63,218 nt of DNA, from assembly GCA_964601175.1 (NCBI GenBank), contig CAZRMJ010000004.1, forward strand, positions 1-63,218. The letters run 5' to 3'. Origin of the DNA: Candidatus Woesearchaeota archaeon (lineage in GTDB: Archaea > Nanobdellota > Nanobdellia > Pacearchaeales > GW2011-AR1). Positions 21,548-63,216 of the stretch are shown here, piece after piece. The notes beneath the pieces were generated by a model that did not search any database, was not told the DNA's origin, and saw only the letters and a program-made list of their open reading frames with translations. Position 1 is the stretch's first letter, and each line of letters starts with the position of its first letter. Position numbers and translations under genes: made by a program.

Positions 21548-23782
21548 TCAAGCTATTCCAATAACTCCATAGCCAAAGTTATTTGAAAGTTTAATAGATC
21601 CAACCTCTGACAAATTATCAATATTATTAGCCTTAATCAAATAATCAGAAACTGTATATAAAGAATCTCCTATAGTCAAAGATCTGTAAACATAACCTTG
21701 AGTTGGGAAATATTGCCTGTCTTCTCCAACGTCATTTGTAGAATCCTGTTTAAGATCATGAGCTATTTTTCCTCTAAGAGATATTCCATCACTTCCAATT
21801 TTGAAAACAAAAGCTCCTTGCCAATATTTCCAATTATTTCCTGATTGTTCAGAATAACTAACTGGAATAACTAACAAACCATTTTCATAATCTAATAAAA
21901 CAGATTTTGGTTCATACTCTGCATCCGAAGAAGAATAATCTGCATCAAGAACATAACTACTAAGCTCTTTAGGATTTTCAAAATCTGAAACATCTATTAA
22001 AGAAACCTTTAAATTCTGAGGTCCAAAACTATTTGAAGAAGCTCTTCCTATTCCTAAAACAAGATGATCTCCTATAGGTTGAAGATAGTTAGAAAATCCT
22101 TTAATTTTAGAATATCCTAAAACTTCTGGTTTAGTAGAATCAGATAAATCAATAACATAAAATTGGCTGTTCTCTCTTGATGTAGTCATATAAGCATAAT
22201 TTTCCAAAAATCTAACAGAATAAATCTGATCACCCTGAGCAAAATCTTCAATTTTACCTAAAATATTCAGATCAGAATCTAAAACATAAATATTGTTAAA
22301 AGAGTTAGAATAACCTCCAAAAATATTTCCGCTATTAGTTACAACTCTAAGATTCCCTTCAAATTCACTAATTGAAAATTGATTAAATATATACCCAGGA
22401 ATTTCTGCAACGCCACCATAAGATATATCTAATCCGTCTATATTTATCTTATGAATCAAAGTTTTTTCATATTCCTTGGAAAGTTGTGAATAATATTTAC
22501 CAATTGCAACACCATAAGACTTCTCAAAATCTTTTTTTTCATCCGAAGACAATCTGTTAAAGTATTCCTGTATTACTAATCTAATTTTGTCAGATTTAAC
22601 TGAATAATCACTATCTGAATTGATTATATCCTCTATTTTTGATCTAGAATTAGAGTCAACTAAATCAAGATAAACTTTAAGATCATCTCCTGATTGGATT
22701 TTTGAATAATCATAAGGCTTAGAACTTGCAATATAGATAGCATTATCTGAAACATAAATCGCACTTCCAGAACCTGTAATAAATACATCCCCATTAAAGT
22801 CTAAAGATTCAATATCTATGGCCATTACAGAAGTAAACATTGGATTTGATTGTAAATATCCTGGATAATAAACGCTATTCAGATCCGCTATTTTATTATC
22901 TCCGTCAGCTCCAAAAAATGGGATAACTGGATCTGCATAATTTACATATTTATTGGAAATGACATAAATTTTATTGTCGATAATTCTCGAAGAATAATAA
23001 GACCCCTCTACAGAAAAGTCCTTAAGAAGTTTAGGATCATAAACAAAATTTCCAGTTATGTCATAAATGTGTATGTTAACATAAGGACCATAACCTTCTC
23101 TAGGGGGAACTATTCCAGAATTTCCAGGAGAAGAAACTCCTTTTTCTGAAACAAATGTCTGATCAGGACCAAGATTCTGAGGATCTGCCATTATTGTAGG
23201 GTCTGGAATTCCTTTGCTCTCTTCTACAACTGAAGGAGAGCTATTTTTTACAGAGCCTTCAGGTAATTCGATAGAAGGATATTGAATATCTCCTCCTTGT
23301 CCATATGCCGACTCTAAGACAATTAGTTTGCCATCATTCACAAAAATTCCAGTTACATAATTATCAAAACTCAATTCTGAGATAATCTTCATAGAGTCCG
23401 CAGGATAAGCATTTATGATGTAAACTTTATTTGAACTAATTTTATAGATATATTTACCATCATTCTTAACAATATCAGGCTCGTCAACTCCAGAAACTTG
23501 AACATTAGTAGACGAATATGAAATTGTTTTCTGAGGATCCGCGCTTCCCTCTGAAGCTGAAACACCCGCAGCATCTTGACTAAATGAATCTAAAGAAATA
23601 GAGTTTTTAGAATTGAAATTTAAAGAGGAACTTTGCTTGTTAGATTCATCTAAATAAGAAACAAGCTCGCTATATGAGCTAACCCTCTTCAAATCATTAG
23701 AAGAGTTAGCAGAGTAATAAACAGCAAATAAAGCCAAAACAACTATACCAGATAACACTCCAATCAAAATTTTCTTATTCAT
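21548..23782 (-). CDS. Secreted beta-propeller domain protein
   Basis: 744 aa with an N-terminal anchor/signal (ILIGVLSGIVVLALFAVYY). NVQVSGVDEPDIVKNDGKYIY and repeated blade-like segments resemble the secreted C-terminal beta-propeller family that is commonly paired with an ArsR-type gene. Confidence 0.6.
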   Translation of the reverse strand: MNKKILIGVLSGIVVLALFAVYYSANSSNDLKRVSSYSELVSYLDESNKQSSSLNFNSKNSISLDSFSQDAAGVSASEGSADPQKTISYSSTNVQVSGVDEPDIVKNDGKYIYKISSNKVYIINAYPADSMKIISELSFDNYVTGIFVNDGKLIVLESAYGQGGDIQYPSIELPEGSVKNSSPSVVEESKGIPDPTIMADPQNLGPDQTFVSEKGVSSPGNSGIVPPREGYGPYVNIHIYDITGNFVYDPKLLKDFSVEGSYYSSRIIDNKIYVISNKYVNYADPVIPFFGADGDNKIADLNSVYYPGYLQSNPMFTSVMAIDIESLDFNGDVFITGSGSAIYVSDNAIYIASSKPYDYSKIQSGDDLKVYLDLVDSNSRSKIEDIINSDSDYSVKSDKIRLVIQEYFNRLSSDEKKDFEKSYGVAIGKYYSQLSKEYEKTLIHKINIDGLDISYGGVAEIPGYIFNQFSISEFEGNLRVVTNSGNIFGGYSNSFNNIYVLDSDLNILGKIEDFAQGDQIYSVRFLENYAYMTTSRENSQFYVIDLSDSTKPEVLGYSKIKGFSNYLQPIGDHLVLGIGRASSNSFGPQNLKVSLIDVSDFENPKELSSYVLDADYSSSDAEYEPKSVLLDYENGLLVIPVSYSEQSGNNWKYWQGAFVFKIGSDGISLRGKIAHDLKQDSTNDVGEDRQYFPTQGYVYRSLTIGDSLYTVSDYLIKANNIDNLSEVGSIKLSNNFGYGVIGIA

Positions 23783-24351
23783 TTAATAGGCCTCCTAGAA
23801 GACATCCAATCAAATATTAAAGCAATTGCTATAGAAAACAGAGCTCCTGCAATGAAAAATATCCATCCAAAGCTAGCAATACTAACATTTCCAGCAACCG
23901 CTGAATTTGCAGCTAGTACTGTAGCTTGAGCACTTTCAGCTAAAGCCTTATTTGAAATCTCATTAGCAGAACTATAAGAATAAGATCTCAAAAATAAACC
24001 AAGAACTGCAGAAGCAATAATAGCAGGAACAATCCCCCTGGTAGCCCTCTTAGGAGAAATTACTATTTGCTTATTTGCAACTTTGTAAACTGGAGTTTTC
24101 TTCCCCTTAACACTCCAAAAAAAGTTAGAAGATTTTTCAACAAGTCCTGAAGAGATTAATTTATCTAAATTATAGCCAGTAGTATTCAAAGGAATTCCAA
24201 GATTGCCCGCAATATCTCCTGCAGTCAATTCTTTCTCTGCAAGTAATCCAAGAATCTTTATGCAAGTTTTATTAGACAAAGCTTCAGCTACCAAAGCAGT
24301 CTTGGGATTATCCAAATCAATAACTATTGAACTTTTACTCATGGAGAACAA
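23779..24351 (-). CDS. ArsR-family winged-helix regulator fused to C-terminal transmembrane segments
   Basis: 190 aa; ALSNKTCIKILGLLAEKELTAGDIAGNLGIPLNTTGYNLDKLISSGLVEK plus 2 hydrophobic helices. There is a 4-nt overlap with the downstream propeller gene. Confidence 0.7.
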   Translation of the reverse strand: MFSMSKSSIVIDLDNPKTALVAEALSNKTCIKILGLLAEKELTAGDIAGNLGIPLNTTGYNLDKLISSGLVEKSSNFFWSVKGKKTPVYKVANKQIVISPKRATRGIVPAIIASAVLGLFLRSYSYSSANEISNKALAESAQATVLAANSAVAGNVSIASFGWIFFIAGALFSIAIALIFDWMSSRRPIK

Positions 24352-47704: not shown

Positions 47705-49138
47705 TTATAAACCTAACTTATTCCTCAGATATTCTGAAAGATCTTTTATCTTAATTCTTTCTTGCTTAGTACTATCCCTATCCCTTATAGTCACATCTTT
47801 TCCTTTTATGGAATCTCCATCGATAGTTATGCAATAAGGAGTACCTATTTCATCATTTCTTGCATATCTTCTTCCTATACTTCCACTATCATCATATACT
47901 GCTTCAAATTTTTCCTTAAGCTCATTAAATACATCTCTAGACAGTTTAACCACATCTTCATCTTTTTTAACAATAGGAAAAACTGCAACCTTGACTGGAG
48001 CAAGTCTAGGATGCAATTTCAAAACAATATTATCTCTAGACTTATCATAATTATATGCTTCAAGTAAAATTATCATAAAAGTTCTTTCGACACCCAATGA
48101 GGGCTCGCAAACAACTTCAGGCAATATTTTACCAAATTTAGGATCCATAATTTCTAGATTCTTTCCAGAAAATTTTTGATGTTGAGTCAAATCATAATTA
48201 GATCTATCTGCAAATCCTTGAAGTTCTCTCCAACCCATAGGGAAATTATATTCTAAGTCCCAAGTATCTGAAGAATAATGACTTTTCTCTTCAGGTAAAT
48301 GTTGCCTTATCCTAAAATTATTTAGATTAACTCCAAGAAGTTTAAACCATTCAAGTTCTTGACTTATCCAATAAGCGTGCCAATCTCTTTTTATGACCTT
48401 ATCTTTGAGAGCTTTTGAAATCTTCATCTTAACAGGATCTTTTCCATTTTTTTGCATGTCTGAAGAATAAATAAGAATTTCATGATCTTTTATATCATAA
48501 TCACATTTTTGATTTGGAGCAATAAAATATTCTATTTCCATTTGTTCAAGTTCTCTATCTCTAAATATAAACTCCCTTGGAGAAATCTCATTACGAAATG
48601 CCTTTCCTATTTGAGCAATTCCAAACGGAAGACTCATACGCGAATTTTCTTGAACTAATTTAAAATTAGCAAATATTAATTGGGCAGTTTCTCCTCTCAA
48701 ATAAGCTTCAGTAGGGTTTAATGCTCCTACGCTAACAGGGAAAAGTTGATTAAACTTTCCAAGCACTTCAAACTGTCCTCCGCATTTATCGCACTTAACT
48801 TTCCCAACTTCATTAGAATCAATCTTAGTTGCATTCTTACATTTTTTACATTTAACAGCAACATCGTAAAAGCTAGATAAGTGACCTGAAGCTTCCCACA
48901 ACTTTCTTGGAGTTATAATAGCGCCATCTATTCCAACAAGATCTTCTCTCCTCTTAACATGAAAATTCCACCATTCTCGTTTTATATTATTTTTAAGCTC
49001 AACTCCAACAGGACCAAAATCCCAAACTCCTGCCATTCCCCCATAAATTTCAGCAGAAGGATAAACAAATCCTTTTCTTTTACAAAAAACAGCTAAATCC
49101 TCTACACTTATTTTACTGTCAGAAATCTTATCAACCAT
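47705..49138 (-). CDS. glyS: Glycyl-tRNA synthetase (alpha2, archaeal/eukaryotic type)
   Basis: 477 aa; RGFVYPSAEIYGG..G.WDFGP, FRNEISPR, EPSLGVER, and the anticodon-binding C-domain. Confidence 0.9.
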   Translation of the reverse strand: MVDKISDSKISVEDLAVFCKRKGFVYPSAEIYGGMAGVWDFGPVGVELKNNIKREWWNFHVKRREDLVGIDGAIITPRKLWEASGHLSSFYDVAVKCKKCKNATKIDSNEVGKVKCDKCGGQFEVLGKFNQLFPVSVGALNPTEAYLRGETAQLIFANFKLVQENSRMSLPFGIAQIGKAFRNEISPREFIFRDRELEQMEIEYFIAPNQKCDYDIKDHEILIYSSDMQKNGKDPVKMKISKALKDKVIKRDWHAYWISQELEWFKLLGVNLNNFRIRQHLPEEKSHYSSDTWDLEYNFPMGWRELQGFADRSNYDLTQHQKFSGKNLEIMDPKFGKILPEVVCEPSLGVERTFMIILLEAYNYDKSRDNIVLKLHPRLAPVKVAVFPIVKKDEDVVKLSRDVFNELKEKFEAVYDDSGSIGRRYARNDEIGTPYCITIDGDSIKGKDVTIRDRDSTKQERIKIKDLSEYLRNKLGL

Positions 49139-49186
49139 AAATGTCTTATCTAAAACATCTCTTTAAATCTTTCTAATAAAAACAAA

Positions 49187-49259
49187 AGCGCGGAACAGGA
49201 TTCGAACCTGCGAATACTCGGGCTGCAGCCGAGCGCGTTAACCACTTCGCCATCCGCGC
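49187..49259 (-). tRNA. tRNA-Cys (anticodon GCA)
   Basis: 73-nt cloverleaf: GCGCGGA/TCCGCGC, anticodon arm CTCGG-CTGCAGC-CCGAG, T arm GCAGG-TTCGAAT-CCTGT, discriminator U as expected for Cys. Confidence 0.85.
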
Positions 49260-49311
49260 ATACGCATGTATGGAGGATACTGTGAATTTCAATTCACTCC
49301 ATCCGCGCATA
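49250..49311. repeat. 13-nt direct repeat of the tRNA-Cys 5' end flanking a 36-nt hairpin-containing insert
   Basis: ccatccgcgcata occurs at 49250-49262 and 49299-49311 (minus sense TATGCGCGGATGG = 3 leader nt plus tRNA nt 1-10). The insert at 49263-49298 contains GTGAAT-TTCA-ATTCAC. Confidence 0.85.
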
Positions 49312-49331
49312 AAACAACAGATGGAAGTTGT

Positions 49332-49339
49332 TATTTAAA
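49332..49339 (-). promoter_or_regulatory. TATA box positioned for the DISTAL copy of the tRNA-Cys 5' end
   Basis: Minus-sense TTTAAATA; the core starts 31 nt upstream of the distal GCGCGGA (G at 49308), the same spacing seen at the other tRNAs. Confidence 0.5.
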
Positions 49340-49378
49340 CCTTATTTAATAAAAAAAATCAAAAAATAAAAATCACCC

Positions 49379-49534
49379 TCACTCTCTAGCAGAGAGTTCT
49401 TTTATTCTTTCTGCAACACCTTGTGCTTCATTTTCAAGACTTTTTTTGTATTCTTCAAGCATCTCAATTTTTTCAGTTCTTGTCAAAAAGCCTCTACTAG
49501 ATTCACAAGAATTACCGTAACATTGCCAACCCAT
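49379..49534 (-). CDS. Unannotated 51-aa DUF5320-like protein
   Basis: Manual translation: MGWQCYGNSCESSRGFLTRTEKIEMLEEYKKSLENEAQGVAERIKELSARE, with SD AGGAGG 9 nt upstream. It is divergent from the PadR gene. Confidence 0.5.
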   Translation of the reverse strand: MGWQCYGNSCESSRGFLTRTEKIEMLEEYKKSLENEAQGVAERIKELSARE

Positions 49535-49615
49535 TATATTGTTCCTCCTTTCATTTATATGTATCGTATATGCGATACATTAACTATATAAATATATCGG
49601 TCGTCCAATAATAAA

Positions 49616-49906
49616 ATGGAAAAAGGTTACTGTGACATGAGGGGTTTTCTCTCATTTCTTATATTATTCATGTTATCGAAAAAACCAATGCACGGTCAAG
49701 AGATAGCCAACGAAATAGAAAAAAGAAAGGGGTGTAAACCTTCTCCTGGAACAATATACCCGGCATTGAAACAACTAAAAGAAAATGGATTAATAAAAGA
49801 AAAGAAAGAAGGAAAAATAATAACTTATTCTATAACACCTCAAGGTAAAAAAGAATTTGAACATGCAAGGGATCAATTTTGCAAAACATTTAGTGATGTA
49901 TTTTAA
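49616..49906 (+). CDS. PadR-family transcriptional regulator
   Basis: 96 aa; RGFLSFLILFMLSKKPMHGQEIANEIE...SPGTIYPALKQLKENGLI. Confidence 0.85.
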   Translation: MEKGYCDMRGFLSFLILFMLSKKPMHGQEIANEIEKRKGCKPSPGTIYPALKQLKENGLIKEKKEGKIITYSITPQGKKEFEHARDQFCKTFSDVF

Positions 49907-49930
49907 TAAACAATATCTAGATAGTATATT

Positions 49931-50045
49931 ATGTTCAAATCCTTAACGACCCCGACAGGATTCCTTCAACTTTTAAAAGTTGAATGGGACTGAAGTGACT
50001 TGTTCACTTCAGGATGTTCAAATCCTTAACGACCCCGACAGGATT
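49931..50045. repeat. 32-nt perfect direct repeat (tRNA-Arg(TCT) 3' end plus 18 nt of trailer) flanking a 51-nt twin-hairpin cassette
   Basis: atgttcaaatccttaacgaccccgacaggatt occurs at 49931-49962 and 50014-50045. Between the copies are H1 TTCAACTTTT/AAAAGTTGAA (49966-49985) and H2 CTGAAGTGA-CTTGT-TCACTTCAG (49990-50012). Confidence 0.9.
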
Positions 50046-52824: not shown

Positions 52825-53769
52825 ATGAATTTTGTCAAAAGATGCCCAGAGTGTAACAGTATAAATTTAACACATGATGATCAGAAAGGTGAAATAATTT
52901 GTGGTGATTGCGGACTTATTATAGAAGATAAAATGGTTGATACTGGCCAAGATGTCGGAGGCCAATTTGATAAATCTGAAAAAAAGGGTAGAGGGGGAGC
53001 TCCAATATCCAGACAAAAATTTGATCAAGGATTAACAACAAATATAGGAGAAATTTCAGATATTTACAAATTAGAAGCAGGTCAAACAAGAAAATTCTTA
53101 AGATTAAAAAAATGGCAGGAAAGAGTTTCAACTTCCATTGAAAGAAATCTCAGATTGGCAATGGCAGAGTTAAGAAGAGTATCTTCATTCTTAACCTTAC
53201 CTTCAGTAGTTAGAGATGAAGCTTCTAGAGTATATCAATTCGTTCTTCAAAGAGGTCTAGTAAGAGGAAGATCTATGGAATCAGTTATAGCAGCATGTAT
53301 ATATGCAGCATGTAGATCTTATAACATCCCAAGAACATTAGATGAAATAGCTAACGCATCTGATGTAGCAAGAAAGGAAATAGGAAGAACATACAGATTC
53401 GTAATAAGAAAATTAGGAATAAAAGTTAAACCTTCATCTCCAAAAGACTACATTTCAAGATTTTCATCAATTTTACATTTGAGCCCACATGCGCAAAATG
53501 AAGCAATCAAAATACTAAAGAAAGCTGATATCTCCGAACTAACATCTGGAAGAGGTCCAGCAGGAATAGCCGCCGCAGCATTATACGTCTCTGCATTAAT
53601 CAATGATGAAAAAAAGACACAGAGAGAAGTAGCAGATGTAGCAGGAATAACTGAAGTAACTATAAGAAACAGATACAAAGAATTAATCGACAGATTAGGA
53701 ATAGAAGACAAATTAAAACTAAAAGAAGTAGAAAATAAGACTGTAAAACCTCAAGTTAATGAAAAGTGA
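52825..53769 (+). CDS. tfb: Transcription initiation factor IIB (TFB)
   Basis: 314 aa; Zn ribbon CPECNS..CGDCG, B-reader, and two cyclin folds (RGRSMESVIAACIYAACR, GRGPAGIAAAALYVSA). Confidence 0.9.
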   Translation: MNFVKRCPECNSINLTHDDQKGEIICGDCGLIIEDKMVDTGQDVGGQFDKSEKKGRGGAPISRQKFDQGLTTNIGEISDIYKLEAGQTRKFLRLKKWQERVSTSIERNLRLAMAELRRVSSFLTLPSVVRDEASRVYQFVLQRGLVRGRSMESVIAACIYAACRSYNIPRTLDEIANASDVARKEIGRTYRFVIRKLGIKVKPSSPKDYISRFSSILHLSPHAQNEAIKILKKADISELTSGRGPAGIAAAALYVSALINDEKKTQREVADVAGITEVTIRNRYKELIDRLGIEDKLKLKEVENKTVKPQVNEK

Positions 53770-53772
53770 TTT

Positions 53773-56700
53773 CTAAAAATTTAATCCATTAACAACATCT
53801 GAAACAGATATCGTCTTTTCATCAAACATATCATAAGCTCCACTAAATAAATTTGAATCAACTAATTCTTTTTCAGAAACAAAAAGAATTCTGCCATTGT
53901 TTACAGATCCAACTCTTTGCTCACTTTGTCCAAAATCGATATAGACCCCATTTCCTAAAACAAAAACAAAGGTCTTTTTACCATCAAGATAAAAATAATT
54001 TCTAGAAGAGCTAGAGTAATTTTTAAAAGACAAACTTTTAGTCTGAGGAAGATTAGCATTATTTGATGCTGTAGAACTAGAATCGGCCACGTTAGCAACA
54101 GATTTAATCGAAACAGCGTTGTTAGAAACAGATTTGGCAAAAACATTAGAATAAAGTTTAGCCCTCAATAAAAGAACGCTAGCTTTGTCCGAATTCCAAA
54201 ATGCCTTATCCATTAAAGAATTTATTTTAATTAATAATCCATTAAAGCTAGAAGAATCTGCACTATCTATTGAGCCTTGAAGATCATTTATCTCTGAAGC
54301 AATACTAGTAGGACTAGAATATTTTTGAGAATTTAAGTTATCTTGTTGAACTTTAGTAATTTCACTTAAAGTCTCATTTTTTAATCCAGCATTAGAATCA
54401 CTTATAGCATTTTGAACACTATTCTTATCCAACCAACACTTCAATCTATCACTTCCACAAATTCCAACTTGAACGAATCTAGAAGGATCTGTGGCACTTC
54501 CAGGATTATCTGTAGAACATATTCTTACAATACCCCTATTATATATTGAAGGATTAAGAGCTTCTTCTCCAGCACTTTGTAAATTAGGATTAAGAAGCGA
54601 AGTTGGACTTAAGCTTCCAGATACACATTCAGTTTCTGTAGTTATATCAGTTCTAGCTAATTCATCTGAAACAATTTTATCACTGACATAATTAACTGCA
54701 AAGCTACTAGAGACTTCTTTAAATCCACATTCTTCTTTATCATTTATTCTAACGCACAATTGCTTATACCCTTTAGGAGCAGTAAAGTCTTTGCTTTCAG
54801 TAGCGTATTGCCCTTTAGAGATAAATCCAGTAGAAACTACAACTACTGGAGATGTAGCATATTGCGAATTAGAAGGAGGATCTTTCAAGTAAACGCTATA
54901 TGAAACACCCCTATCATTTCCTGCAAATATGTGATAAAACACCTTATACTGAGAAGTAGCAGGGAAAGTAGCATCTGTAAAGTCTATCGAACTATACCAA
55001 GCATGGAATTGAGGAGGCGAATCAGCTTGAACAAGAGTTTCAAAAGTATTAGGGACCTTAGCAGAAATAAATGCTCTACAAAGTTCAGTTCCTGCTTCTT
55101 CAGTACTTCTTATTTTAAATGCATCAAATGAATTAGATGCATAACTTTGTGTAAAGTATTCTGCAGAGTCCTGGGCGTTCTGCCAACTACTTTGAACCGT
55201 CAAATATTCTCCTCCACCTCTAACGCTCTTCTGTCCTCCAGTATAAGCAGTTTCAACAAGCTTAGGAACAAGAGTCTTAGCCAAAGGTGCTGCTTGTCTC
55301 CAGAAAAATTCACAAAGATAAACTGAACTAATTTGATCACAAATTCCAACATACTGACCGGTATCTATTGACTCTTGTAAGCACTGTTGATGAGATTTCA
55401 AAATAGAAAGATATCCATCAACTCCAGCTTTAATTCCGGTCAAACAAACAGGAACTACAATTCCATCATTTATGTTAGGCAAACAAAGTAATGCGCTTCC
55501 AACTATTCCAGATTGAACAACATCTGAAACATAATATTCTCCTCCAAAGTTACATCTAGATACAGGACATATTACAGGGTCACAAACGTTAAACAATATT
55601 TTACATTCTTCAGGACTCATATAATCTTGGCACTGGCTTCCAGGCAAAAGAGAAGCAGAATCTCCTACATTTAGAGTGTTAGAACCAATTCTAACATTCT
55701 TTTTACCATATTGTTGAGCAGCATCTTGCAAGGCCTTAACTGCATCATTAACAAGCTTCTTACTTTCAGATTCACTTAATCCAGGGAAATTAGAATAAGA
55801 CTGTCCAGTATAAGCATTAAATTGAACGCATTCATCATCTCCATAATTTGGAGCATTAAAGTCAACTCTTTTATTACCCATTATATTACAAACAAAGAAG
55901 TTTGAAGGTTTTCCATTATCTTCGTAAGATTTAGTGCCTCCAAAAATAGGCAAAGCCTGAGAAGTAGCAGCGTAAAATCCCCTATTCAAATCAAATGGAA
56001 CTATCGCAGGCATTCCCTTGTACGGCTCAGTTTCAAAGTACTTAACTACATTTTCTCCTGGAGAAAATTGATTGTTATACCTTCCGGAGCCAACTTCATT
56101 AAATACGCCAGGAAGGTTCTTTAAAGCATTATTAGAAGCAAGATTAACTTCTGAAGATATTACCTTATGATCATTACCAGTTAATGTATAAACCTTATCT
56201 GAAACGTATTGATCTCCTTGTTTCTTCAAGGTAACCAAATAATTATTTCCATCATCTGCCTTGATAATCTGAGCATAAGCTCCATTGTCAATACTAACTC
56301 CAGAAGATGTACTAAAGGAATTTTGATTTATCAAAGAACTAACTGTCGATCCATAATAATTTCCAGGTCTACTTGAAGATATAGAATAAACTTGAGCCCC
56401 GTTATAATTTTTCAAAGTATTTTGATAATTCAAGTTATCACCTATAGTTTTACCCAAAGAATCTAATTCGGAAGAAGATCTTAACTTGCCTTGAGTGCTA
56501 GTCTGAGGATCATTAACAACTTTGCAATTAAAGTAAACATCTCTCAATTCACTATATGAATAACTAGTAGCATTAAGTTCAGAAGGTAAAAGAGATCCGA
56601 CACTAGAATAACCTATTCCAGAGCTTTTAATTCCAAGATTAACATTACTACATTCACTTCTTATTTTATTGATTAATTCAGTTCTGGCAGTAACATCATC

Positions 56701-58983
56701 AAAAGAAGTTCCAGCAAAAACACCATCTCTACTTTGGAATGAATTTCTTTTTTCTATATCTTGAGTAATCCTATTAGTATCTTCTATAGCTTTTTGTCTA
56801 GCAGAGACATCACTTGCAATCTTTTGAGAGTTTGCATTATAACAAGCAGTTAATGAAGTGTAATTATGAGCATTCACAGCGTTTTGACAGAAGTTTGTCC
56901 ATCCATTTTCTCCAGACATAGCACCTCTTCTAGCAAGAGCCCCTCCACTCAATCCAGTAAAGAAATTCTTAACTGTAAGAACTCCAGCAGTAGCAAAACA
57001 AGCAGCATTAAGATTAGTAACTACTCCATTAAGAGTTTTAGAAATAGACTCAAATTTCTGAATAGTTTTATTCAAATTTTCTATTTTCTTATTAGCCTTA
57101 GCAGGAGTCAGTTCTATAGCTCTTTTTTCTATACCTATTCCAACAGTAAAGTTAGTAATTTCTCCAGATCTAGTTACTGGAGATATCCTTACCTTATAAT
57201 AACTCTGAGCATCAATTTTAGAAACTTTAATTATTTGACCACATGCTTTAACAGTATTCAATAGCCTAACATTTCCATTAAAGTCATTTTTCCTATCTTC
57301 TCCAGTGCATTTAGCAGATATTTCTACAGTTTGAGAATCTTTTATTGAAGTCAATGACAAAGTTCCAAAAGAGAAATCAAAATTACCTCCTTGTTCGACG
57401 GTCTTTTCTTCCCTTCCCCAAGAGATAGTTGCACTTGATTTTTTGGAAGCACCATTTACATCTAAAAGCCTTATCAAGTGATATCCATCATCCGATTGAA
57501 CGACAGTTCCAGAAATAGAAGAATCAACAGAATAAATATTGTTTAAAGCATTTGTGAAATCTACTGCACTACTTCCATCCGGATAAAGATCTAAATATTT
57601 TTCAATTAATCTTATAGCTTCAGTATTCTTTCCATACTTAAGATTAAGATTAATTGCATTACTTAGTGCAAAGTCCCCATAAGTTTTTCCAAGTTCTTTC
57701 TTTTCATCACCATAAGAGTCTGCTATAGCCTCATAATCTTGAGTCGCATTTCTCAAATAAGATTCATAATCTCCATAATTGGCATCTTGTAAAACATTAG
57801 ATGAAATAGGCCTAACAAAACCAGATAGAACTATTGAACCATCATTTAGTTTATAGAATACCCCAGATTCATTTCTAATAACTTCCAAAACGGAATATTC
57901 TTTACTTTTATCAACTGAAAGATCTTTATTGATCTTCCAAACTCTTTCTCCAGAACTTAAAGAAATATCTGAAGAATTCAAGAAGATTTTCTGATTACCG
58001 CAGCTTATATCAATACTACCACTAACAGAATCTCCATAAACTTTTCTAACGGTACATTTATTATTCAAAAATCTAGATCCACCATATAAGTCAAGAATAT
58101 CATCATCAACTCTCAACCTAGCAATAAGAGATGGAGAAATAAAGTCAGTATAACTAAATTGCAAAGCAGTCTGGCAATAACTTCCGGGCAAATAAACTGG
58201 AGTAGGTTGAACTTGGTTCTTTCTCAAAGTCAATTCAGAATATTTTCTATCCCCTGAATAAATTTCAAGACCTAAAGTGTTATTAGAGTCCACTTCTGAA
58301 ACTCTAACAGACATTTTTCCATTAAACAATGTTTGTTTGTTCTTAACGATGTTCCATTCAGCATCATTAGTTTCTTTTAACAACAACTCAGTAGCTCCTA
58401 TTCCTACAGAATTTCCAGAATAATAGTCCACGCTAGCACTTAAGGTGAAGTTGAAAAAATTAGGAATGGTTTTCTCATCAGGATTCCTCTTCAAAACAAC
58501 TACAACATAACCAATATTACTTTGTAGAGGGGTTCCCAACAAACTATTTGTAGTCCTTAATGCAGCGTTAGCTGGATGAAACCCAACTCCTGCAACATAA
58601 TCTGGATAACGTCCACTAAATCTAATATTTCTAATTTGTTTAATATCTATAATTGGGTTAATTTGTAATAAATCCAATTGACAAAATACAGGAACATTCT
58701 GCTCAGCAAGCAAATCGCTTCTAACAACTGAAGGCTGACAACCAACAGGAGAAACCTGTATCAATATATCTTGACTAGAAGTACAAGAGTCTCTGTTAGA
58801 TAAAATAGGCCAGTAAGTATTAGCATTAGATCCATAATAACTGGAAAAACTACTTCCGTAACTTGTAAAACTAGCAGTCCTAGTTAATCCATTACCCAGA
58901 AAATTAGGATCTGAAGTAACAACCTGAGCACTAACAAACCCAATAAACAAAACAAAAGCAAAAGCAAGAATTAATTTATTCAT
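53773..58983 (-). CDS. Giant secreted protein (1736 aa), Sec signal peptide, central Cys-rich module, no recognisable domain
   Basis: Uninterrupted 5.2-kb ORF with N-terminus MNKLILAFAFVLFIGFVSA|QVV. It is S/N/G/T-rich and has a Cys cluster around CQDYMSPEECKILFNVCDPVICPVSRC. The ATGA overlap links it to the upstream 609-aa gene. Confidence 0.7.
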   Translation of the reverse strand: MNKLILAFAFVLFIGFVSAQVVTSDPNFLGNGLTRTASFTSYGSSFSSYYGSNANTYWPILSNRDSCTSSQDILIQVSPVGCQPSVVRSDLLAEQNVPVFCQLDLLQINPIIDIKQIRNIRFSGRYPDYVAGVGFHPANAALRTTNSLLGTPLQSNIGYVVVVLKRNPDEKTIPNFFNFTLSASVDYYSGNSVGIGATELLLKETNDAEWNIVKNKQTLFNGKMSVRVSEVDSNNTLGLEIYSGDRKYSELTLRKNQVQPTPVYLPGSYCQTALQFSYTDFISPSLIARLRVDDDILDLYGGSRFLNNKCTVRKVYGDSVSGSIDISCGNQKIFLNSSDISLSSGERVWKINKDLSVDKSKEYSVLEVIRNESGVFYKLNDGSIVLSGFVRPISSNVLQDANYGDYESYLRNATQDYEAIADSYGDEKKELGKTYGDFALSNAINLNLKYGKNTEAIRLIEKYLDLYPDGSSAVDFTNALNNIYSVDSSISGTVVQSDDGYHLIRLLDVNGASKKSSATISWGREEKTVEQGGNFDFSFGTLSLTSIKDSQTVEISAKCTGEDRKNDFNGNVRLLNTVKACGQIIKVSKIDAQSYYKVRISPVTRSGEITNFTVGIGIEKRAIELTPAKANKKIENLNKTIQKFESISKTLNGVVTNLNAACFATAGVLTVKNFFTGLSGGALARRGAMSGENGWTNFCQNAVNAHNYTSLTACYNANSQKIASDVSARQKAIEDTNRITQDIEKRNSFQSRDGVFAGTSFDDVTARTELINKIRSECSNVNLGIKSSGIGYSSVGSLLPSELNATSYSYSELRDVYFNCKVVNDPQTSTQGKLRSSSELDSLGKTIGDNLNYQNTLKNYNGAQVYSISSSRPGNYYGSTVSSLINQNSFSTSSGVSIDNGAYAQIIKADDGNNYLVTLKKQGDQYVSDKVYTLTGNDHKVISSEVNLASNNALKNLPGVFNEVGSGRYNNQFSPGENVVKYFETEPYKGMPAIVPFDLNRGFYAATSQALPIFGGTKSYEDNGKPSNFFVCNIMGNKRVDFNAPNYGDDECVQFNAYTGQSYSNFPGLSESESKKLVNDAVKALQDAAQQYGKKNVRIGSNTLNVGDSASLLPGSQCQDYMSPEECKILFNVCDPVICPVSRCNFGGEYYVSDVVQSGIVGSALLCLPNINDGIVVPVCLTGIKAGVDGYLSILKSHQQCLQESIDTGQYVGICDQISSVYLCEFFWRQAAPLAKTLVPKLVETAYTGGQKSVRGGGEYLTVQSSWQNAQDSAEYFTQSYASNSFDAFKIRSTEEAGTELCRAFISAKVPNTFETLVQADSPPQFHAWYSSIDFTDATFPATSQYKVFYHIFAGNDRGVSYSVYLKDPPSNSQYATSPVVVVSTGFISKGQYATESKDFTAPKGYKQLCVRINDKEECGFKEVSSSFAVNYVSDKIVSDELARTDITTETECVSGSLSPTSLLNPNLQSAGEEALNPSIYNRGIVRICSTDNPGSATDPSRFVQVGICGSDRLKCWLDKNSVQNAISDSNAGLKNETLSEITKVQQDNLNSQKYSSPTSIASEINDLQGSIDSADSSSFNGLLIKINSLMDKAFWNSDKASVLLLRAKLYSNVFAKSVSNNAVSIKSVANVADSSSTASNNANLPQTKSLSFKNYSSSSRNYFYLDGKKTFVFVLGNGVYIDFGQSEQRVGSVNNGRILFVSEKELVDSNLFSGAYDMFDEKTISVSDVVNGLNF

Positions 58984-60809
58984 TGAAAGTCCACCTCCAA
59001 TCCAATACTATTGAAAACTTCATAATTGTATTGTAATTGCTCCAATGAACTAGGCTTAGGAAGTTCACTAGCATGAATTATCAAATTGCCATTAGAAAGT
59101 TCGCTATCAAGCAGATAATATTCAGTGAGTTTACCTCCTCCAATTAAAGCATAATCTATCTTTGTTGAAGGGATATCTACATTAACACACTTCTCAGTTT
59201 TAGCACCTAAGAAGCCAGCAATTCCACCTTTGCTAACTTGAACACATTCAGTTTTAGTAGTAGATGGTATAACAATACTAGAATTTCCATAAATGTAAAC
59301 CTCTATATCATAAAGACCCTCTTTGAGCTTCACACTAGAACTATCAGGGATAATTGCATTAGATGAATATCCGTCAGTGCCTATAAAGTGGACAATCGCA
59401 TTACTTTGAACCTTATTTCCAATCATTACTTGAACATTTAGATTATGTTCTTTCTGCAAAACAAGCTCTGCAGAGCTTTGAGAATTAGAAGAGAATAATA
59501 TTTTAGAGTCTGCATAACCATCTGCAGAAGCTATAAGATATCCATTAACACAAGCAGGAACTTTAGTATCAACTCTTCCTGAAGAAGAAGTTTGCCCGAT
59601 ATTACATAAACTATCAAAACAATTATAGCTCAAGTTAACAGATAAAGGATTAAGAGATGAATCATAAGCATTTACTGTAAGATCATTTTCAGCAAAAGAG
59701 CAAACATCAACTTCCTCATCAGCATTAGCATAAGTAAGATTCAAAGAATTTACAAGATTATTATCTATATTTACTATAACTGGAAATTGGAAATTATCAA
59801 TGCCATCTCCAACTTGTACTAAAACTGGAAATCTAAGGTCATAAACAAAATGATAAGGAACATAACAAAATCCCATAATCCCCATTCCTTCTTGAGTTCC
59901 TACAGGTTCAGCAACCATTAAAGCTTGAGAAGCTGGAGTAATCTCAATTTTACTTGGAAAAGATTCAGGCAAGTAAATAAAGTTAGCACCATTATTGACC
60001 CTAATATTTTGGTTGAAATATTTATCTCCAGACCCATCTACCTTTATATTACCTATATTTGCTTGAAGACCATCTTTTATTTCCTTAACTACATCTTGTG
60101 TCTTCCATATTTTTGGAGAACATTGTATTTCGACACCATCAACTGGAGCATAAGATTGTAAAACGTCTAAAGCATAATTTTCCAAAAACAAACTACTTCT
60201 TTCATTATTATATATGGAAACAGCTTCCCCGTATAATGATCCAAGCTTGCTATCTAATTTAACATCATGAGTTCTCTTAACTGCTGTATCGTCACCAAAA
60301 CCAGTAGAAAGGGAAGATTTAACTGAAACTGAAACTGAATTATCTGAGATCTTTACAGTAGCATCAGCCGAAGATTTGTCTATAGAAAATCCTTTAGCAT
60401 AAAAATCTGAAAAGTCACAATCTCCAATTCTTGAAGATACAAATGAACCAAGGTCTTTCTCCATATCAGAAATAGAAGGAACATCATTGATAACTAAATT
60501 ATTTCCCGAAATTCCATACCAATAAGGAACCCTAAGTCCTAGAAAATTAAGGTTAGAAGAAAAAGGATTAAAATCACTAGCAGAAGCGGTTTCCTCTACA
60601 TTCAATCTACCACCTTGAGCTTGAAGTAATTTAATTCCGTTAGATAATTCCTGAGAGATACACTCGGAGTATCTATCATAAACAGGTACAAGTGAAGCAG
60701 GGATATTGCTTCCAAAAATGCTACTCCTAAAAAAGAAAAATAAAGCTATGGCTGCAACAATTATTATTGCAAAAATCACGAAACCAGTTACCTGACCTCT
60801 TCTAATCAT
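58980..60809 (-). CDS. 609-aa extracellular protein with class III (type IV pilin-like) signal peptide
   Basis: N-terminus MIRRGQVTGFVIFAIIIVAAIALFFFF has the basic-Gly-Gln cleavage-type motif followed by a hydrophobic helix. The remainder is beta-rich with no known domain. Confidence 0.65.
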   Translation of the reverse strand: MIRRGQVTGFVIFAIIIVAAIALFFFFRSSIFGSNIPASLVPVYDRYSECISQELSNGIKLLQAQGGRLNVEETASASDFNPFSSNLNFLGLRVPYWYGISGNNLVINDVPSISDMEKDLGSFVSSRIGDCDFSDFYAKGFSIDKSSADATVKISDNSVSVSVKSSLSTGFGDDTAVKRTHDVKLDSKLGSLYGEAVSIYNNERSSLFLENYALDVLQSYAPVDGVEIQCSPKIWKTQDVVKEIKDGLQANIGNIKVDGSGDKYFNQNIRVNNGANFIYLPESFPSKIEITPASQALMVAEPVGTQEGMGIMGFCYVPYHFVYDLRFPVLVQVGDGIDNFQFPVIVNIDNNLVNSLNLTYANADEEVDVCSFAENDLTVNAYDSSLNPLSVNLSYNCFDSLCNIGQTSSSGRVDTKVPACVNGYLIASADGYADSKILFSSNSQSSAELVLQKEHNLNVQVMIGNKVQSNAIVHFIGTDGYSSNAIIPDSSSVKLKEGLYDIEVYIYGNSSIVIPSTTKTECVQVSKGGIAGFLGAKTEKCVNVDIPSTKIDYALIGGGKLTEYYLLDSELSNGNLIIHASELPKPSSLEQLQYNYEVFNSIGLEVDFQ

Positions 60810-60943
60810 TTTCTATCACCTTTGTCAACCTTATCCTTAACAAGCTCCATAAGTGCGGAGTTAATATCCTTATCTATACTATCTTTGAACTTCTCCCACA
60901 ATTTCTCGTCTTCAATAAGCAAAAGATATTTCTTCACAATCAA
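60806..60943 (-). CDS. Putative small ribbon-helix-helix-like protein (43-45 aa, TTG/GTG start)
   Basis: Manual translation: (LI)VKKYLLLIEDEKLWEKFKDSIDKDINSALMELVKDKVDKGDRK. Its stop overlaps the 609-aa ATG (ATGA), and GAGGT lies upstream. Confidence 0.35.
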   Translation of the reverse strand: MIVKKYLLLIEDEKLWEKFKDSIDKDINSALMELVKDKVDKGDRK

Positions 60944-60985
60944 AACCTCTAAAATAAAAAACAAAATTAGTATATAAATATTATT

Positions 60986-61021
60986 AGTAACTTAATCAGT
61001 AAGTTACTTACTTAGTAAGTA
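60986..61021. promoter_or_regulatory. Operator-like palindromes upstream of the RHH/609/1736 operon
   Basis: AGTAACTTA-ATCAG-TAAGTTACT (60986-61008) followed by TACTTA-G-TAAGTA (61009-61021). The half-site TAAGT(T/A)ACT recurs, and TATATAAATA (60971-60980) lies between these palindromes and the ORF. Confidence 0.3.
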
Positions 61022-61056: not shown

Positions 61057-61127
61057 TGGCCCCACCAAGAATCGAACTTGGGCCTCGTCCACGTCAAAGA
61101 CATGTTCTACCATTAGACTATGGGGCC
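61057..61127 (-). tRNA. tRNA-Val (anticodon GAC)
   Basis: 71-nt cloverleaf: GGCCCCA/TGGGGCC, anticodon arm TGTCT-TTGACGT-GGACG (two G.U pairs), T arm CCAAG-TTCGATT-CTTGG, discriminator A. The D stem has one mismatch. Confidence 0.75.
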
Positions 61128-63124: not shown

Positions 63125-63216
63125 GCCTCTGTAGCTCAACGGTTAGAGCAATAGTTTTGTAAATCCAGAGATTTCAAAACAACTATAGGTTGGGGGTTCG
63201 ATTCCCTCCAGAGGCT
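63125..63216 (+). tRNA. tRNA-Thr (anticodon TGT) with a ~19-nt canonical 37/38 intron
   Basis: GCCTCTG/CAGAGGC acceptor, D arm GCTC-AACGGTTA-GAGC, anticodon stem ATAGT/ACTAT, loop TTTGTA|intron 63162-63180 (aatccagagatttcaaaac)|A, T arm GGGGG-TTCGATT-CCCTC. Confidence 0.8.

What the first reader, a model, noticed from the sequence alone, without database searches (positions are those of the whole stretch)
53773..60943. Translationally coupled three-gene operon: small RHH-like ORF, pilin-signal 609-aa protein and 1736-aa secreted giant with no known domains
About 7.2 kb (11% of the window) is devoted to two large extracellular proteins with no motif I can assign. They are linked by ATGA stop/start overlaps (60806-60809 and 58980-58983) and preceded by a 43-45-aa ORF with a ribbon-helix-helix-like pattern. 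The giant has a classical Sec signal (VSA|QV), the partner a class III (type IV pilin-like) signal. In host-dependent small archaea, giant surface proteins are the prime candidates for cell-cell attachment, so a co-translated pilin-anchored partner plus a dedicated small regulator looks like a self-contained surface or adhesion module. This functional reading is speculative.
Basis: partly seen in the sequence, partly recalled or inferred. Interest (0 to 1): 0.7.

Follow-up and report, generated by a model that had tools for sequence, protein, structure and literature searches.

The report
Conserved Pacearchaeal surface-complex operon with regulator
A three-gene operon conserved across a large group of tiny, probably host-dependent archaea encodes a small probable regulator with its own DNA palindrome, a membrane-anchored 609-aa protein and a 1736-aa secreted protein whose variable outer end carries bacterial-cell-wall-cutting enzymes in some relatives, making it a strong candidate for the cell-contact apparatus.

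Summary
In detail: three minus-strand genes (43-aa, 609-aa, 1736-aa) joined by ATGA overlaps. None matches Pfam, NCBIfam, PDB sequences or, for the two large proteins, a known fold.

The gene order small->partner->giant recurs in almost all of 80+ related loci from Pacearchaeota/Nanoarchaeota-type genomes, always between tRNA-Val/rpS3Ae and TFB/rpS8e.

New points:
1. A 13-bp palindrome (CTTACTAAGTAAG) lies just upstream of the TATA box. It occurs in 61/64 loci that have the small ORF, 0/13 that lack it, and almost nowhere else in 1.18 Mb. The small protein is therefore probably a dedicated autoregulator, though RHH homology is not demonstrable.
2. The giant is a mosaic. Its core is about as conserved as ribosomal proteins (58% median identity) and keeps ~32 cysteines. 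Its C-terminal tail is hypervariable.
3. In orthologues at the same locus the tail carries phage-tail lysozyme, SLT, GH3, ankyrin or LRR domains.

Best reading: an autoregulated, membrane-anchored extracellular two-protein complex for contact with other cells, in some lineages bacteria. An S-layer is less likely because sequons are depleted and conservation is high. Function remains inferred. The giant family may be the "fam00969" noted by Castelle et al. 2021.

The parts
61057..61127 (-). tRNA-Val(GAC), the conserved upstream neighbour on the same strand (context; not shown to be co-transcribed)
   Evidence: ARAGORN. The same tRNA lies upstream on the same strand in 30 of 32 related loci.
61007..61019 (.). 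Perfect 13-bp palindrome CTTACTAAGTAAG, a candidate operator
   Evidence: With <=2 mismatches it lies within 200 nt upstream of the small ORF in 61/64 loci that have the ORF and in 0/13 that lack it, with 16 hits in 1.18 Mb elsewhere.
60991..61003 (.). Second, degenerate copy of the palindrome (CTTACTGATTAAG, 2 mismatches)
   Evidence: Thirty-one of 64 related upstream regions hold 2-4 such sites.
60971..60978 (-). TATA-like box TTTATATA, 33 nt before the GTG start
   Evidence: Read from the sequence. A TATA-like box lies downstream of the palindrome in 60 of 64 loci. Promoter function is inferred.
60945..60949 (-). GAGGT Shine-Dalgarno-like motif 7 nt before GTG 60937
   Evidence: Read from the sequence. 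Many related loci have GAGG at the same place.
60806..60937 (-). Small ORF, 43 aa (GTG start; TTG 60943 is the alternative). Cytoplasmic, with a beta-alpha-alpha pattern and a basic tail. Probable autoregulator.
   Evidence: The family has 2544 clusters, with consensus MKKYLLLIEDEKLWEKFK..I.KDINSEI.ELIK.KV.
58980..60809 (-). Partner, 609 aa: N-terminal anchor plus ectodomain
   Evidence: The AF2 model has pLDDT 83: an alpha/beta domain at 86-350 with no structural match, and beta-sandwiches at 374-600.
60717..60809 (-). Partner residues 1-31: class-III-like signal / transmembrane helix (RRG|QVTGFVIFAIIIVAAIALFFFF)
   Evidence: G5 and Q6 are >=90% conserved in 41 homologues. This is the only such N-terminus in the window.
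53773..58983 (-). Giant, 1736 aa, secreted. The mature protein is about 187 kDa, pI 5.4, with 32 Cys.
58927..58983 (-). Giant residues 1-19: Sec signal peptide (cleavage VSA|QV)
   Evidence: Sequence. The family consensus is F.SAQ.
57994..58905 (-). Giant residues 27-330: conserved N-terminal module (not modelled)
   Evidence: median identity 49%.
56794..57183 (-). Giant residues 601-730: conserved helical module with a hydrophobic Gly/Ala-rich stretch (653-690)
   Evidence: median identity 54%; 52-residue helix in the AF2 model.
54364..56106 (-). Giant residues 960-1540: Cys-rich conserved core
   Evidence: Median identity is 58%, against 63% for rpS8e and 52% for rpS3Ae. There are 1090 cluster representatives. 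There is no fold match.
53776..54363 (-). Giant residues 1541-1736: hypervariable C-terminal tail (helical linker plus an ~90-aa terminal domain here)
   Evidence: Only 2.9% of tail pairs are alignable. Orthologues carry lysozyme, SLT, GH3, Ank or LRR domains here.

Best explanation
The locus is an autoregulated operon for a two-protein complex on the outside of the cell.

1. Transcription starts at a TATA-box promoter. Just upstream of it lie one or two copies of the palindrome CTTACTAAGTAAG.
2. The first product is a 43-aa cytoplasmic protein. It probably dimerises and binds that palindrome, setting the level of the operon (inferred).
3. Ribosomes pass by stop/start overlap to the 609-aa partner. 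The partner inserts N-in/C-out through a pilin-like (class III type) N-terminal helix and displays an alpha/beta domain plus beta-sandwich stalk domains.
4. Ribosomes then pass on to the 1736-aa giant. It is exported by Sec, loses a 19-aa signal peptide, has no anchor of its own, and is therefore probably held by the partner (inferred from coupling, strict co-occurrence and topology).
5. The giant is a disulfide-rich chassis under strong purifying selection. Its C-terminal tail is exchanged freely between lineages. That tail is proposed to be the distal, target-contacting end. In some orthologues it is a murein hydrolase or a protein-binding repeat, which points to contact with, and local breaching of, the envelope of other cells, bacteria included.

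Shown: gene structure, conservation, synteny, the specificity of the palindrome, the mosaic conservation, and the tail domains in orthologues.

Inferred: DNA binding by the small protein, partner-giant binding, the orientation of the tail, and the biological target.
For: - Gene order and overlaps are conserved in about 80 loci. The locus sits in deep synteny with tRNA-Val, rpS3Ae, TFB and rpS8e.
- Selection is purifying: 67 nt but only 12 aa differences from a sister strain.
- The palindrome is specific to this promoter and co-occurs with the small ORF: 61/64 against 0/13, Fisher p 3e-12, with 16 background hits in 1.18 Mb.
- Partner: the [KR]GQ motif followed by a hydrophobic helix is conserved. 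Its ectodomain model has beta-sandwich domains like those of surface stalks and pilins, including SlaB 8qox_B.
- Giant: it has a Sec signal and no anchor. Its core is as conserved as ribosomal proteins while var1, var2 and the tail are not. Thirty to 37 Cys are kept across the family.
- Tails: only 679 of 23653 tail pairs are alignable, against all core pairs.
- Tail domains in orthologues: PF18013, PF01464, PF00933, Ank and LRR, each verified to sit at the same locus next to a partner gene.
- Literature: large extracellular lytic-transglycosylase-domain proteins of Pacearchaeota/Woesearchaeota have been proposed to bind bacterial walls (PMC8204110).
Against: - There is no direct evidence that the partner and the giant bind each other. 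No complex prediction was possible.
- The window's own tail (196 aa) has no recognisable domain. Hydrolase, Ank or LRR tails were detected in only 8 of 218 tails, so the contact or breaching role may apply to few lineages.
- The small protein has no significant similarity to any DNA-binding family. Its beta-strand is unusually hydrophobic for an RHH DNA-reading strand.
- The 13 loci without the small ORF and palindrome may be one clade, so the co-occurrence statistic overstates independence.
- No prepilin peptidase or pilus ATPase is in the window or in the inspected flanks.
- The most conserved part of the giant (1118-1310) is modelled with low confidence, so its structure is unknown.
Confidence: 0.5

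Rival explanations
1. Two-component S-layer. The giant is the lattice-forming canopy (SlaA-like) and the partner is the membrane stalk (SlaB-like). The operon then encodes the cell wall and not a contact device.
For: - A large anchorless secreted protein and a smaller membrane-anchored protein with beta-sandwich domains are encoded in one operon, as in slaAB (PMC5744192).
- Foldseek matches the partner to SlaB 8qox_B at E 1e-4.
- The pair is near-universal, usually single-copy and sits in the core genome.
- Both proteins are acidic and Ser/Asn-rich.
Against: - N-glycosylation sequons are depleted, not enriched: 11 against 24.9+-4.4 expected, and 4-14 across the family.
- The core is as conserved as ribosomal proteins, whereas archaeal S-layer proteins diverge fast (bioRxiv 10.1101/2023.10.27.564410).
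- About 32 Cys are invariant.
- The modelled part of the giant is largely helical, not Ig-like.
- Enzyme, Ank and LRR tails are odd for a lattice protein.
- Nanoarchaeota S-layer proteins have been predicted to be MSTP-like beta-sandwich proteins (bioRxiv 10.1101/2024.05.28.596244).
- The SlaB match has TM 0.13-0.17, which is generic beta-sandwich similarity.
Confidence: 0.15
2. Tip complex of a type-IV-like filament. The partner is a large minor pilin processed by a class III signal peptidase and incorporated into a pilus. The giant is a PilY1-like non-pilin adhesin carried at the tip.
For: - The [KR]-G-Q motif before a hydrophobic helix is conserved.
- The pairing of a Sec-secreted large protein with a pilin-like protein mirrors bacterial PilY1 with minor pilins. 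Archaeal TFF subsystem 4A also has a PilY-like adhesin (bioRxiv 10.64898/2026.04.22.720090).
- Small pilin-like ORFs with KRG/KKG N-termini exist in related loci.
Against: - There is no Pilin_N Pfam hit even at E 10.
- No TFF ATPase, platform protein or peptidase lies in the window or within +-10 kb of the inspected loci.
- A 609-aa globular pilin is very large for incorporation into a filament.
- There is no structural match to PilY1.
Confidence: 0.15
3. Extracellular scavenging enzyme complex. The conserved core is an unrecognised hydrolase or binding platform used to harvest polymers (murein, glycans, nucleic acids) from the environment, with no cell-cell contact.
For: Some tails are glycoside or murein hydrolases. 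These organisms have minimal metabolism and must import building blocks (PMC8204110).
Against: - The core shows no similarity to SLT or lysozyme or to any enzyme fold.
- Ankyrin and LRR tails are binding modules, not catalytic ones.
- Most tails have no enzyme domain.
Confidence: 0.1
4. The small ORF is not a DNA-binding regulator. It could be a chaperone or assembly factor for the partner, or a coupling leader peptide. The palindrome is then bound by some other factor.
For: - There is no significant match to RHH or any DNA-binding family.
- The presumed beta-strand YLLLI is hydrophobic on both faces.
- The small ORF is tightly coupled translationally to the partner.
Against: - The palindrome and the small ORF are gained and lost together.
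- The palindrome is essentially unique to this promoter.
- Size, a beta-alpha-alpha pattern, an N-capping N26, an Arc-like 'INSEI' second helix and a basic tail fit small dimeric operator-binding proteins.
Confidence: 0.25

Closest known systems
Sulfolobales SlaA/SlaB two-component S-layer (PDB 8qox)
   Same: A large anchorless secreted protein and a smaller membrane-anchored protein built partly of beta-sandwich domains, encoded by adjacent co-transcribed genes. The complex is extracellular.
   Different: - There is no sequence homology, and only a generic beta-sandwich structural match (TM 0.13-0.17).
- The gene order is reversed.
- The anchor is N-terminal and pilin-like, not a C-terminal TM plus coiled coil.
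- The giant is sequon-depleted, Cys-rich, partly helical and highly conserved.
- It has a swappable C-terminal tail with enzymes or repeats.
Bacterial type IV pilus tip complex (minor pilins + PilY1) and the PilY-like adhesin of archaeal TFF subsystem 4A
   Same: A pilin-signal protein is paired with a large Sec-exported non-pilin protein thought to mediate adhesion. The genes are adjacent.
   Different: - No homology to PilY1 or to Pilin_N was detected.
- No assembly ATPase, platform or peptidase lies nearby.
- The partner is far larger than known minor pilins.
Ribbon-helix-helix operator-binding repressors (Arc, Mnt, CopG)
   Same: A protein of about 45 aa with a beta-alpha-alpha pattern, encoded as the first gene of the operon it would control. 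Its target would be a short palindrome, sometimes tandem, at the promoter. Helix 2 starts INSEI as in Arc (VNSEI).
   Different: - There is no statistically significant similarity (hhalign 9%).
- The strand residues are hydrophobic where RHH proteins read DNA with polar or basic side chains.
- The site lies upstream of the TATA box, so the mode (repression or activation) is unknown.
[quoted passage not shown] 2021, PMC8204110)
   Same: Same lineages and the same size range (up to ~3000 aa). The proteins are extracellular, some members carry an SLT domain, and a role in attachment to bacterial walls was proposed.
   Different: - Identity of the two families could not be verified, because the supplement is not held.
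- That paper does not describe the partner, the small ORF, the palindrome, the conserved core or the tail-swapping.
- The window's own protein has no SLT domain.
SPEARE giant surface proteins of Nanohaloarchaeum antarcticus (own knowledge, Hamm et al. 2019; not tested here)
   Same: Very large DPANN surface proteins that combine adhesion and hydrolytic domains and are proposed to attach to and open the host envelope.
   Different: No relationship was tested. SPEARE proteins are much larger (>5000 aa), have recognisable domains throughout, and belong to another phylum.

Membership tests
Ribbon-helix-helix (Arc/MetJ/CopG) superfamily - small ORF | Significant sequence or profile similarity to an RHH family | tested here: not met
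   Pfam on 32 members: the Arc family is hit by 1 member at E 0.2, and nothing is above any cut-off. The profile against PDB gives no RHH hit. hhalign of the profile against Arc (sequence verified against 1arq) gives probability 9%.
Ribbon-helix-helix (Arc/MetJ/CopG) superfamily - small ORF | Beta-strand / helix / helix topology in ~45 aa forming a dimer | not tested
   This is only a pattern reading of the alignment.
Ribbon-helix-helix (Arc/MetJ/CopG) superfamily - small ORF | Binds a (pseudo)palindromic operator at its own promoter | tested here: inconclusive
   A conserved, operon-specific 13-bp palindrome co-occurs with the ORF. Binding itself cannot be tested with these tools.
Class III (type IV pilin-like) signal peptide proteins - partner | Short basic N-terminus, G/A at -1, then ~20 hydrophobic residues | tested here: met
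   The sequence is MIRRG|QVTGFVIFAIIIVAAIALFFFF. G5 and Q6 are >=90% conserved, and K/R precedes them in almost all of 41 homologues.
Class III (type IV pilin-like) signal peptide proteins - partner | Match to archaeal pilin N-terminal models | tested here: not met
   No Pilin_N or related Pfam hit at E<=1 for the protein or at E<=10 for its first 71 residues.
Class III (type IV pilin-like) signal peptide proteins - partner | Cognate prepilin peptidase and TFF ATPase/platform in the genome or neighbourhood | tested here: inconclusive
   None among the window ORFs scanned or in the gene calls of L001-L003 and L084-L087. The rest of the 674-kb genome could not be read.
SlaA/SlaB-type two-component S-layer | Homology to SlaA or SlaB | tested here: not met
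   No PDB sequence hit with either profile. The partner matches 8qox_B at E 1e-4 but with TM 0.13-0.17. The giant fragment has no hit with E<0.03.
SlaA/SlaB-type two-component S-layer | Heavily N-glycosylated (sequon-rich), fast-evolving lattice protein | tested here: not met
   Sequons are depleted: 11 observed against 24.9+-4.4 expected. The core is at 58% median identity, similar to ribosomal proteins.
SlaA/SlaB-type two-component S-layer | Forms a 2-D lattice; among the most abundant proteins | not testable with these tools
   No expression or imaging data are available.
Lytic transglycosylase / lysozyme-like murein hydrolases - giant | SLT, lysozyme or GH domain present in the protein | tested here: not met
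   For the window's giant: no Pfam hit at E<=1, and the core profile against the SLT and Phage_lysozyme2 segments gives probability <1%. The feature is met only in the tails of some orthologues: P0305, P0358, P0304, P0270, P0283, P0308.
Conserved Pacearchaeota-type giant/partner families (this operon) | Full-length similarity and the gene order small-partner-giant at the tRNA-Val/TFB locus | tested here: met

The most novel reading that the evidence does not exclude
The operon encodes the lineage-wide host-contact and envelope-breaching machine of Pacearchaeota-type archaea. The partner anchors it. The giant's invariant, disulfide-locked core, with its conserved hydrophobic Gly/Ala-rich segments (653-690 and 1155-1195, which AlphaFold models poorly), would be a metastable membrane-inserting or pore/bridge-forming device of a new fold. 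The exchangeable C-terminal tail would choose and locally digest the target envelope, bacterial murein in some lineages. That would be the first molecular handle on how these uncultured archaea connect to hosts, and it would imply bacterial hosts for some of them.
Probability: 0.12. Interest if true: 0.9.

Novelty: new variant of a known kind. Interest (0 to 1): 0.62.

Why it matters
Pacearchaeota-type archaea are abundant in groundwater and lakes, have genomes of about 0.7 Mb, and have never been cultured. Their hosts and their means of attachment are unknown.

This operon is a concrete, testable candidate for that means:
- It is present in hundreds of species at a fixed core-genome locus.
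- Its core is as conserved as ribosomal proteins.
- It has its own regulator and operator.
- Its exchangeable outer end is a bacterial-wall hydrolase in some lineages.

It offers a marker for predicting host type from the tail domain, an antigen for labelling contact sites in cryo-ET or FISH, a simple protein-DNA pair (43 aa and 13 bp) that can be tested in vitro, and two large protein families with apparently new folds.

Tried and rejected
- **Family libraries:** Pfam and NCBIfam on the three proteins gave nothing.
- **Sequence profiles against PDB:** profiles of the partner, the giant and the small ORF gave nothing meaningful.
- **Partner structure search:** Foldseek of the partner model against PDB found only generic beta-sandwich matches (TIE protein, SlaB, Gram-positive pilins, usher domains). 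The N-terminal alpha/beta domain was unmatched.
- **Giant structure search:** Foldseek of giant residues 495-1640 against PDB and BFVD gave no hit below E 0.03.
- **Core as a cryptic lysozyme/SLT:** rejected by hhalign.
- **Small ORF as an Arc homologue:** hhalign gave 9% probability, so this is not supported.
- **Remote relatives of the core:** the exhaustive profile search returned a sharply bounded family (1090 hits, 958 of them below 1e-30). All 150 listed hits were full-core matches, so no bridge to a known family was seen.
- **Extra upstream genes:** the two extra genes seen in 13 loci (about 167 aa and about 195 aa) have no Pfam match.
- **Pilin-like small ORFs in related loci:** no Pilin_N match.
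- **fam00969:** looking up its membership in the supplements of PMC8204110 found nothing, as it is not held as text.
- **Rejected submission:** This was solved by using fragments that are exact substrings of proteins already returned.
- **S-layer reading:** considered and down-weighted (sequon depletion, conservation, Cys content).
Full report
**1. What is in the window.**
On the minus strand there are three consecutive ORFs:
- 60806-60937/60943, 43-45 aa;
- 58980-60809, 609 aa;
- 53773-58983, 1736 aa.

Each junction is a 4-nt ATGA overlap. The window is AT-rich (about 32% GC) and archaeal. Its neighbours are TFB, rpS8e, rpS3Ae, aminoacyl-tRNA synthetases, GatDE and DNA ligase. It is 98.7-99% identical to part of a 674-kb JGI metagenome contig. 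That size fits the reported median Pacearchaeales genome of 739 kb (bioRxiv 10.64898/2026.05.13.725050).

The giant has a Sec signal (cleavage VSA|QV after residue 19) and no other membrane segment. The partner has a single N-terminal hydrophobic helix after MIRRGQ. Neither large protein hits Pfam or NCBIfam.

**2. These are real, conserved genes.**
The giant has >500 homologues and the partner >1000, at 40-68% identity over the full length. They come from MAGs labelled Pacearchaeota, Nanoarchaeota or (in one TPA series) Woesearchaeota. The 'Woesearchaeota'-labelled loci have TFB 97% identical to the window's, so they belong to the same clade.

A scan of one genome per GTDB species found 460 loci encoding the partner. 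An exhaustive profile search with the giant's core found 1090 50%-identity clusters, 958 of them below E 1e-30.

Against the sister strain:
- the giant shows 67 nucleotide differences but only 12 amino-acid differences;
- the partner shows 13 and 5;
- the small ORF shows none.

**3. Synteny.**
- In the 83 loci examined, partner and giant are adjacent and co-oriented wherever the contig allows.
- The small ORF is detected in 68 of them.
- The partner->giant junction is a 4-nt overlap in 45 loci. The small->partner junction overlaps by 4-14 nt in most.
- The locus sits at a fixed place: tRNA-Val(GAC) upstream on the same strand in 30 of 32 loci, rpS3Ae further upstream, and tRNA-Leu, TFB and rpS8e downstream.
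- In 13 loci, two extra genes for small secreted or C-terminally anchored proteins lie between the tRNA and the partner. Nine of these loci lack the small ORF.

**4. The small protein and its palindrome.**
The small protein family (2544 clusters, 43-67 aa) has the consensus MKKYLLLIEDEKLWEKFK..I.KDINSEI.ELIK.KV followed by a basic tail. The pattern is strand-helix-helix, and helix 2 resembles that of Arc (INSEI against VNSEI). However, no RHH or other DNA-binding family is hit significantly, and hhalign to Arc gives 9%.

There is independent evidence for a regulatory role:
- A perfect 13-bp palindrome, CTTACTAAGTAAG, lies at 61007-61019, with a degenerate second copy at 60991-61003. Both are just upstream of a TATA box (60971-60978) that is 33 nt from the GTG start.
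- The 12-mer TACTWAGTAAGT occurs in 43 of the 83 loci, and only at this position.
- Allowing 2 mismatches, the palindrome lies within 200 nt upstream of the small ORF in 61/64 loci that have the ORF and in 0/13 that lack it. There are 16 hits in the remaining 1.18 Mb.
- It lies 8-43 bp upstream of a TATA-like box, often in 2-3 copies.

I infer that the 43-aa protein binds this element and autoregulates the operon. The 13 negative loci may be one clade, so the statistic is not made of independent events.

**5. The partner.**
In 41 homologues the N-terminus reads [KR]-(x)-G-Q followed by about 22 hydrophobic residues. G and Q are >=90% conserved. That is the form of an archaeal class III (prepilin-type) signal, and such conservation is not needed for a plain anchor. 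It is the only such N-terminus in the window. Small pilin-like ORFs with KRG/KKG N-termini occur in related loci. However, no pilin Pfam model matches any of them, and no peptidase or pilus ATPase is nearby.

The AF2 model (pLDDT 83) has four parts:
- the TM helix;
- a second helix;
- an alpha/beta domain (86-350) holding the invariant motifs PVDGVE.QC and GFCYVPYHFVYD;

Foldseek matches only the beta-sandwiches (TIE protein, SlaB, Gram-positive pilins), with low TM. Ten Cys are invariant.

**6. The giant is a mosaic.**
Median identity to the window across loci:

| Region | Median identity |
|---|---|
| N-module 27-330 | 49% |
| var1 331-600 | 29% |
| Mid module 601-730 | 54% |
| var2 731-959 | detectable only in close relatives |
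| Core 960-1540 | 58% |
| Tail 1541-1736 | detectable only in close relatives |
| TFB | 88% |
| rpS8e | 63% |
| rpS3Ae | 52% |

- Cysteines: about 32 are kept in nearly all members.
- Sequons: N-glycosylation sequons are depleted, 11 against 24.9+-4.4 expected (p about 5e-4), with 4-14 in homologues.
- Model: the AF2 model of 495-1640 (pLDDT 70.5) shows a beta domain, a long helical module that includes a 52-residue helix carrying the hydrophobic stretch 653-690, a mixed core, a beta-sandwich and a helical tail. The most conserved, Cys-rich, partly hydrophobic stretch (about 1118-1310) is modelled with pLDDT 35-60.
- Fold search: neither PDB nor BFVD gives a match below E 0.03.

**7. The tail is exchangeable and sometimes enzymatic.**
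Among 223 complete-looking family members the core is always alignable (24753/24753 pairs). Only 679 of 23653 tail pairs align. Tail length ranges from 0 to 1076 aa; the window's tail is 196 aa.

Domains found in long tails:
- Phage_lysozyme2 (P0305, E 2e-36);
- SLT (P0358);
- Glyco_hydro_3 (P0304, E 3e-33);
- ankyrin (P0355) and LRR (P0375).

By phmmer, 3, 2, 1, 1 and 1 of 218 tails respectively carry these domains. Four of the five proteins were looked up. Each sits directly after a 616-633-aa partner gene with a 4-nt overlap, or in P0305 a 1-nt gap. Three of them also lie in the same rpS3Ae ... TFB/rpS8e neighbourhood. They are therefore orthologues with swapped tails. The conserved core itself is not SLT- or lysozyme-like.

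Three unrelated wall or glycan hydrolase families and two protein-binding repeat families recruited to the same position argue that this end meets other cells' surfaces. Murein hydrolases point to bacteria.

**8. Interpretation.**
The best-supported model is an autoregulated operon for a membrane-anchored extracellular heteromer. The conserved chassis is essential-like, and the distal tail adapts to targets. It adds the operator, the mosaic conservation and the tail evidence.

It remains inferential. No binding, localisation or expression data exist, and the window's own tail has no recognisable domain.

An S-layer role is less likely for four reasons:
- sequon depletion;
- high conservation and many Cys;
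- enzyme and repeat tails;
- a different predicted S-layer type in Nanoarchaeota.

A pilus-tip complex is possible but lacks the machinery nearby.

**9. Relation to the literature.**
Castelle et al. [quoted passage not shown] They proposed that it binds bacterial walls. This is plausibly the same giant family, but I could not verify it. I found no description of the partner, the small ORF, the palindrome, the ribosomal-protein-like conservation of the core or the tail swapping.

I therefore rate the finding as a new variant of a known kind (DPANN surface or host-interaction proteins). The protein folds are apparently new.

**10. Limits.**
- Giant residues 1-494 were not modelled.
- No complex prediction was possible.
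- The rest of the genome could not be searched for a prepilin peptidase, AglB or an S-layer gene.
- Taxonomic labels are those of the records, not GTDB.

Noticed in passing
L003:7086-8148; also L033, L035, L036, L040, L043, L050, L053, L061, L066, L067, L074, L083: In 13 related loci two extra genes lie between tRNA-Val and the partner. One encodes a ~167-aa secreted protein. The other encodes a ~195-210-aa protein with a signal peptide and a C-terminal TM anchor. Neither has a Pfam match. Nine of these loci lack the small ORF and the palindrome; four have both. The genes are absent from the window.
   Followed up: partly
window 49138-50014 versus L001:18970-22484: The 99%-identical sister contig carries about 2.7 kb more here (a TrmB-family regulator, a 140-aa ORF and a 435-aa ORF) next to tRNA-Cys and tRNA-Arg. 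This is a strain-variable islet beside tRNA genes.
   Followed up: partly
window 21548-24351 (-): A 744-aa protein with a Beta_propel domain (PF09826, E 4e-125) has no cysteine at all. It is overlapped by 4 nt by an upstream 190-aa HTH_20 gene. This is another regulator-plus-large-protein pair.
   Followed up: no
window 63125-63216 (+): ARAGORN reports a 92-nt tRNA-like gene with an undetermined anticodon at the very end of the window. It may be an intron-containing archaeal tRNA cut by the window edge.
   Followed up: no
window 53769-53776: The giant and the convergent TFB gene end only 3 nt apart (TFB ends at 53769, the giant's stop is at 53773-53775). There is no room for separate terminators. 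In many relatives a tRNA-Leu(TAG) sits between them.
   Followed up: no
P0133 and P0143 (assembly J4416); L021 and L048 (MAG CAZVKQ01): Two partner genes occur in one assembly or MAG. This could be paralogous second copies of the operon or mixed strains in the bins.
   Followed up: no
L087:12183-13190 (-): In the locus whose giant has an ankyrin tail, the gene just downstream (335 aa) has a faint LysM (peptidoglycan-binding) hit.
   Followed up: no
window 53773-58983 (giant residues ~1118-1310): The most conserved stretch of the giant (73-79% column identity, many invariant Cys, hydrophobic segments) is the part AlphaFold models worst (pLDDT 35-60). This is unexplained. It may need the partner, oligomerisation or disulfides.
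   Followed up: partly
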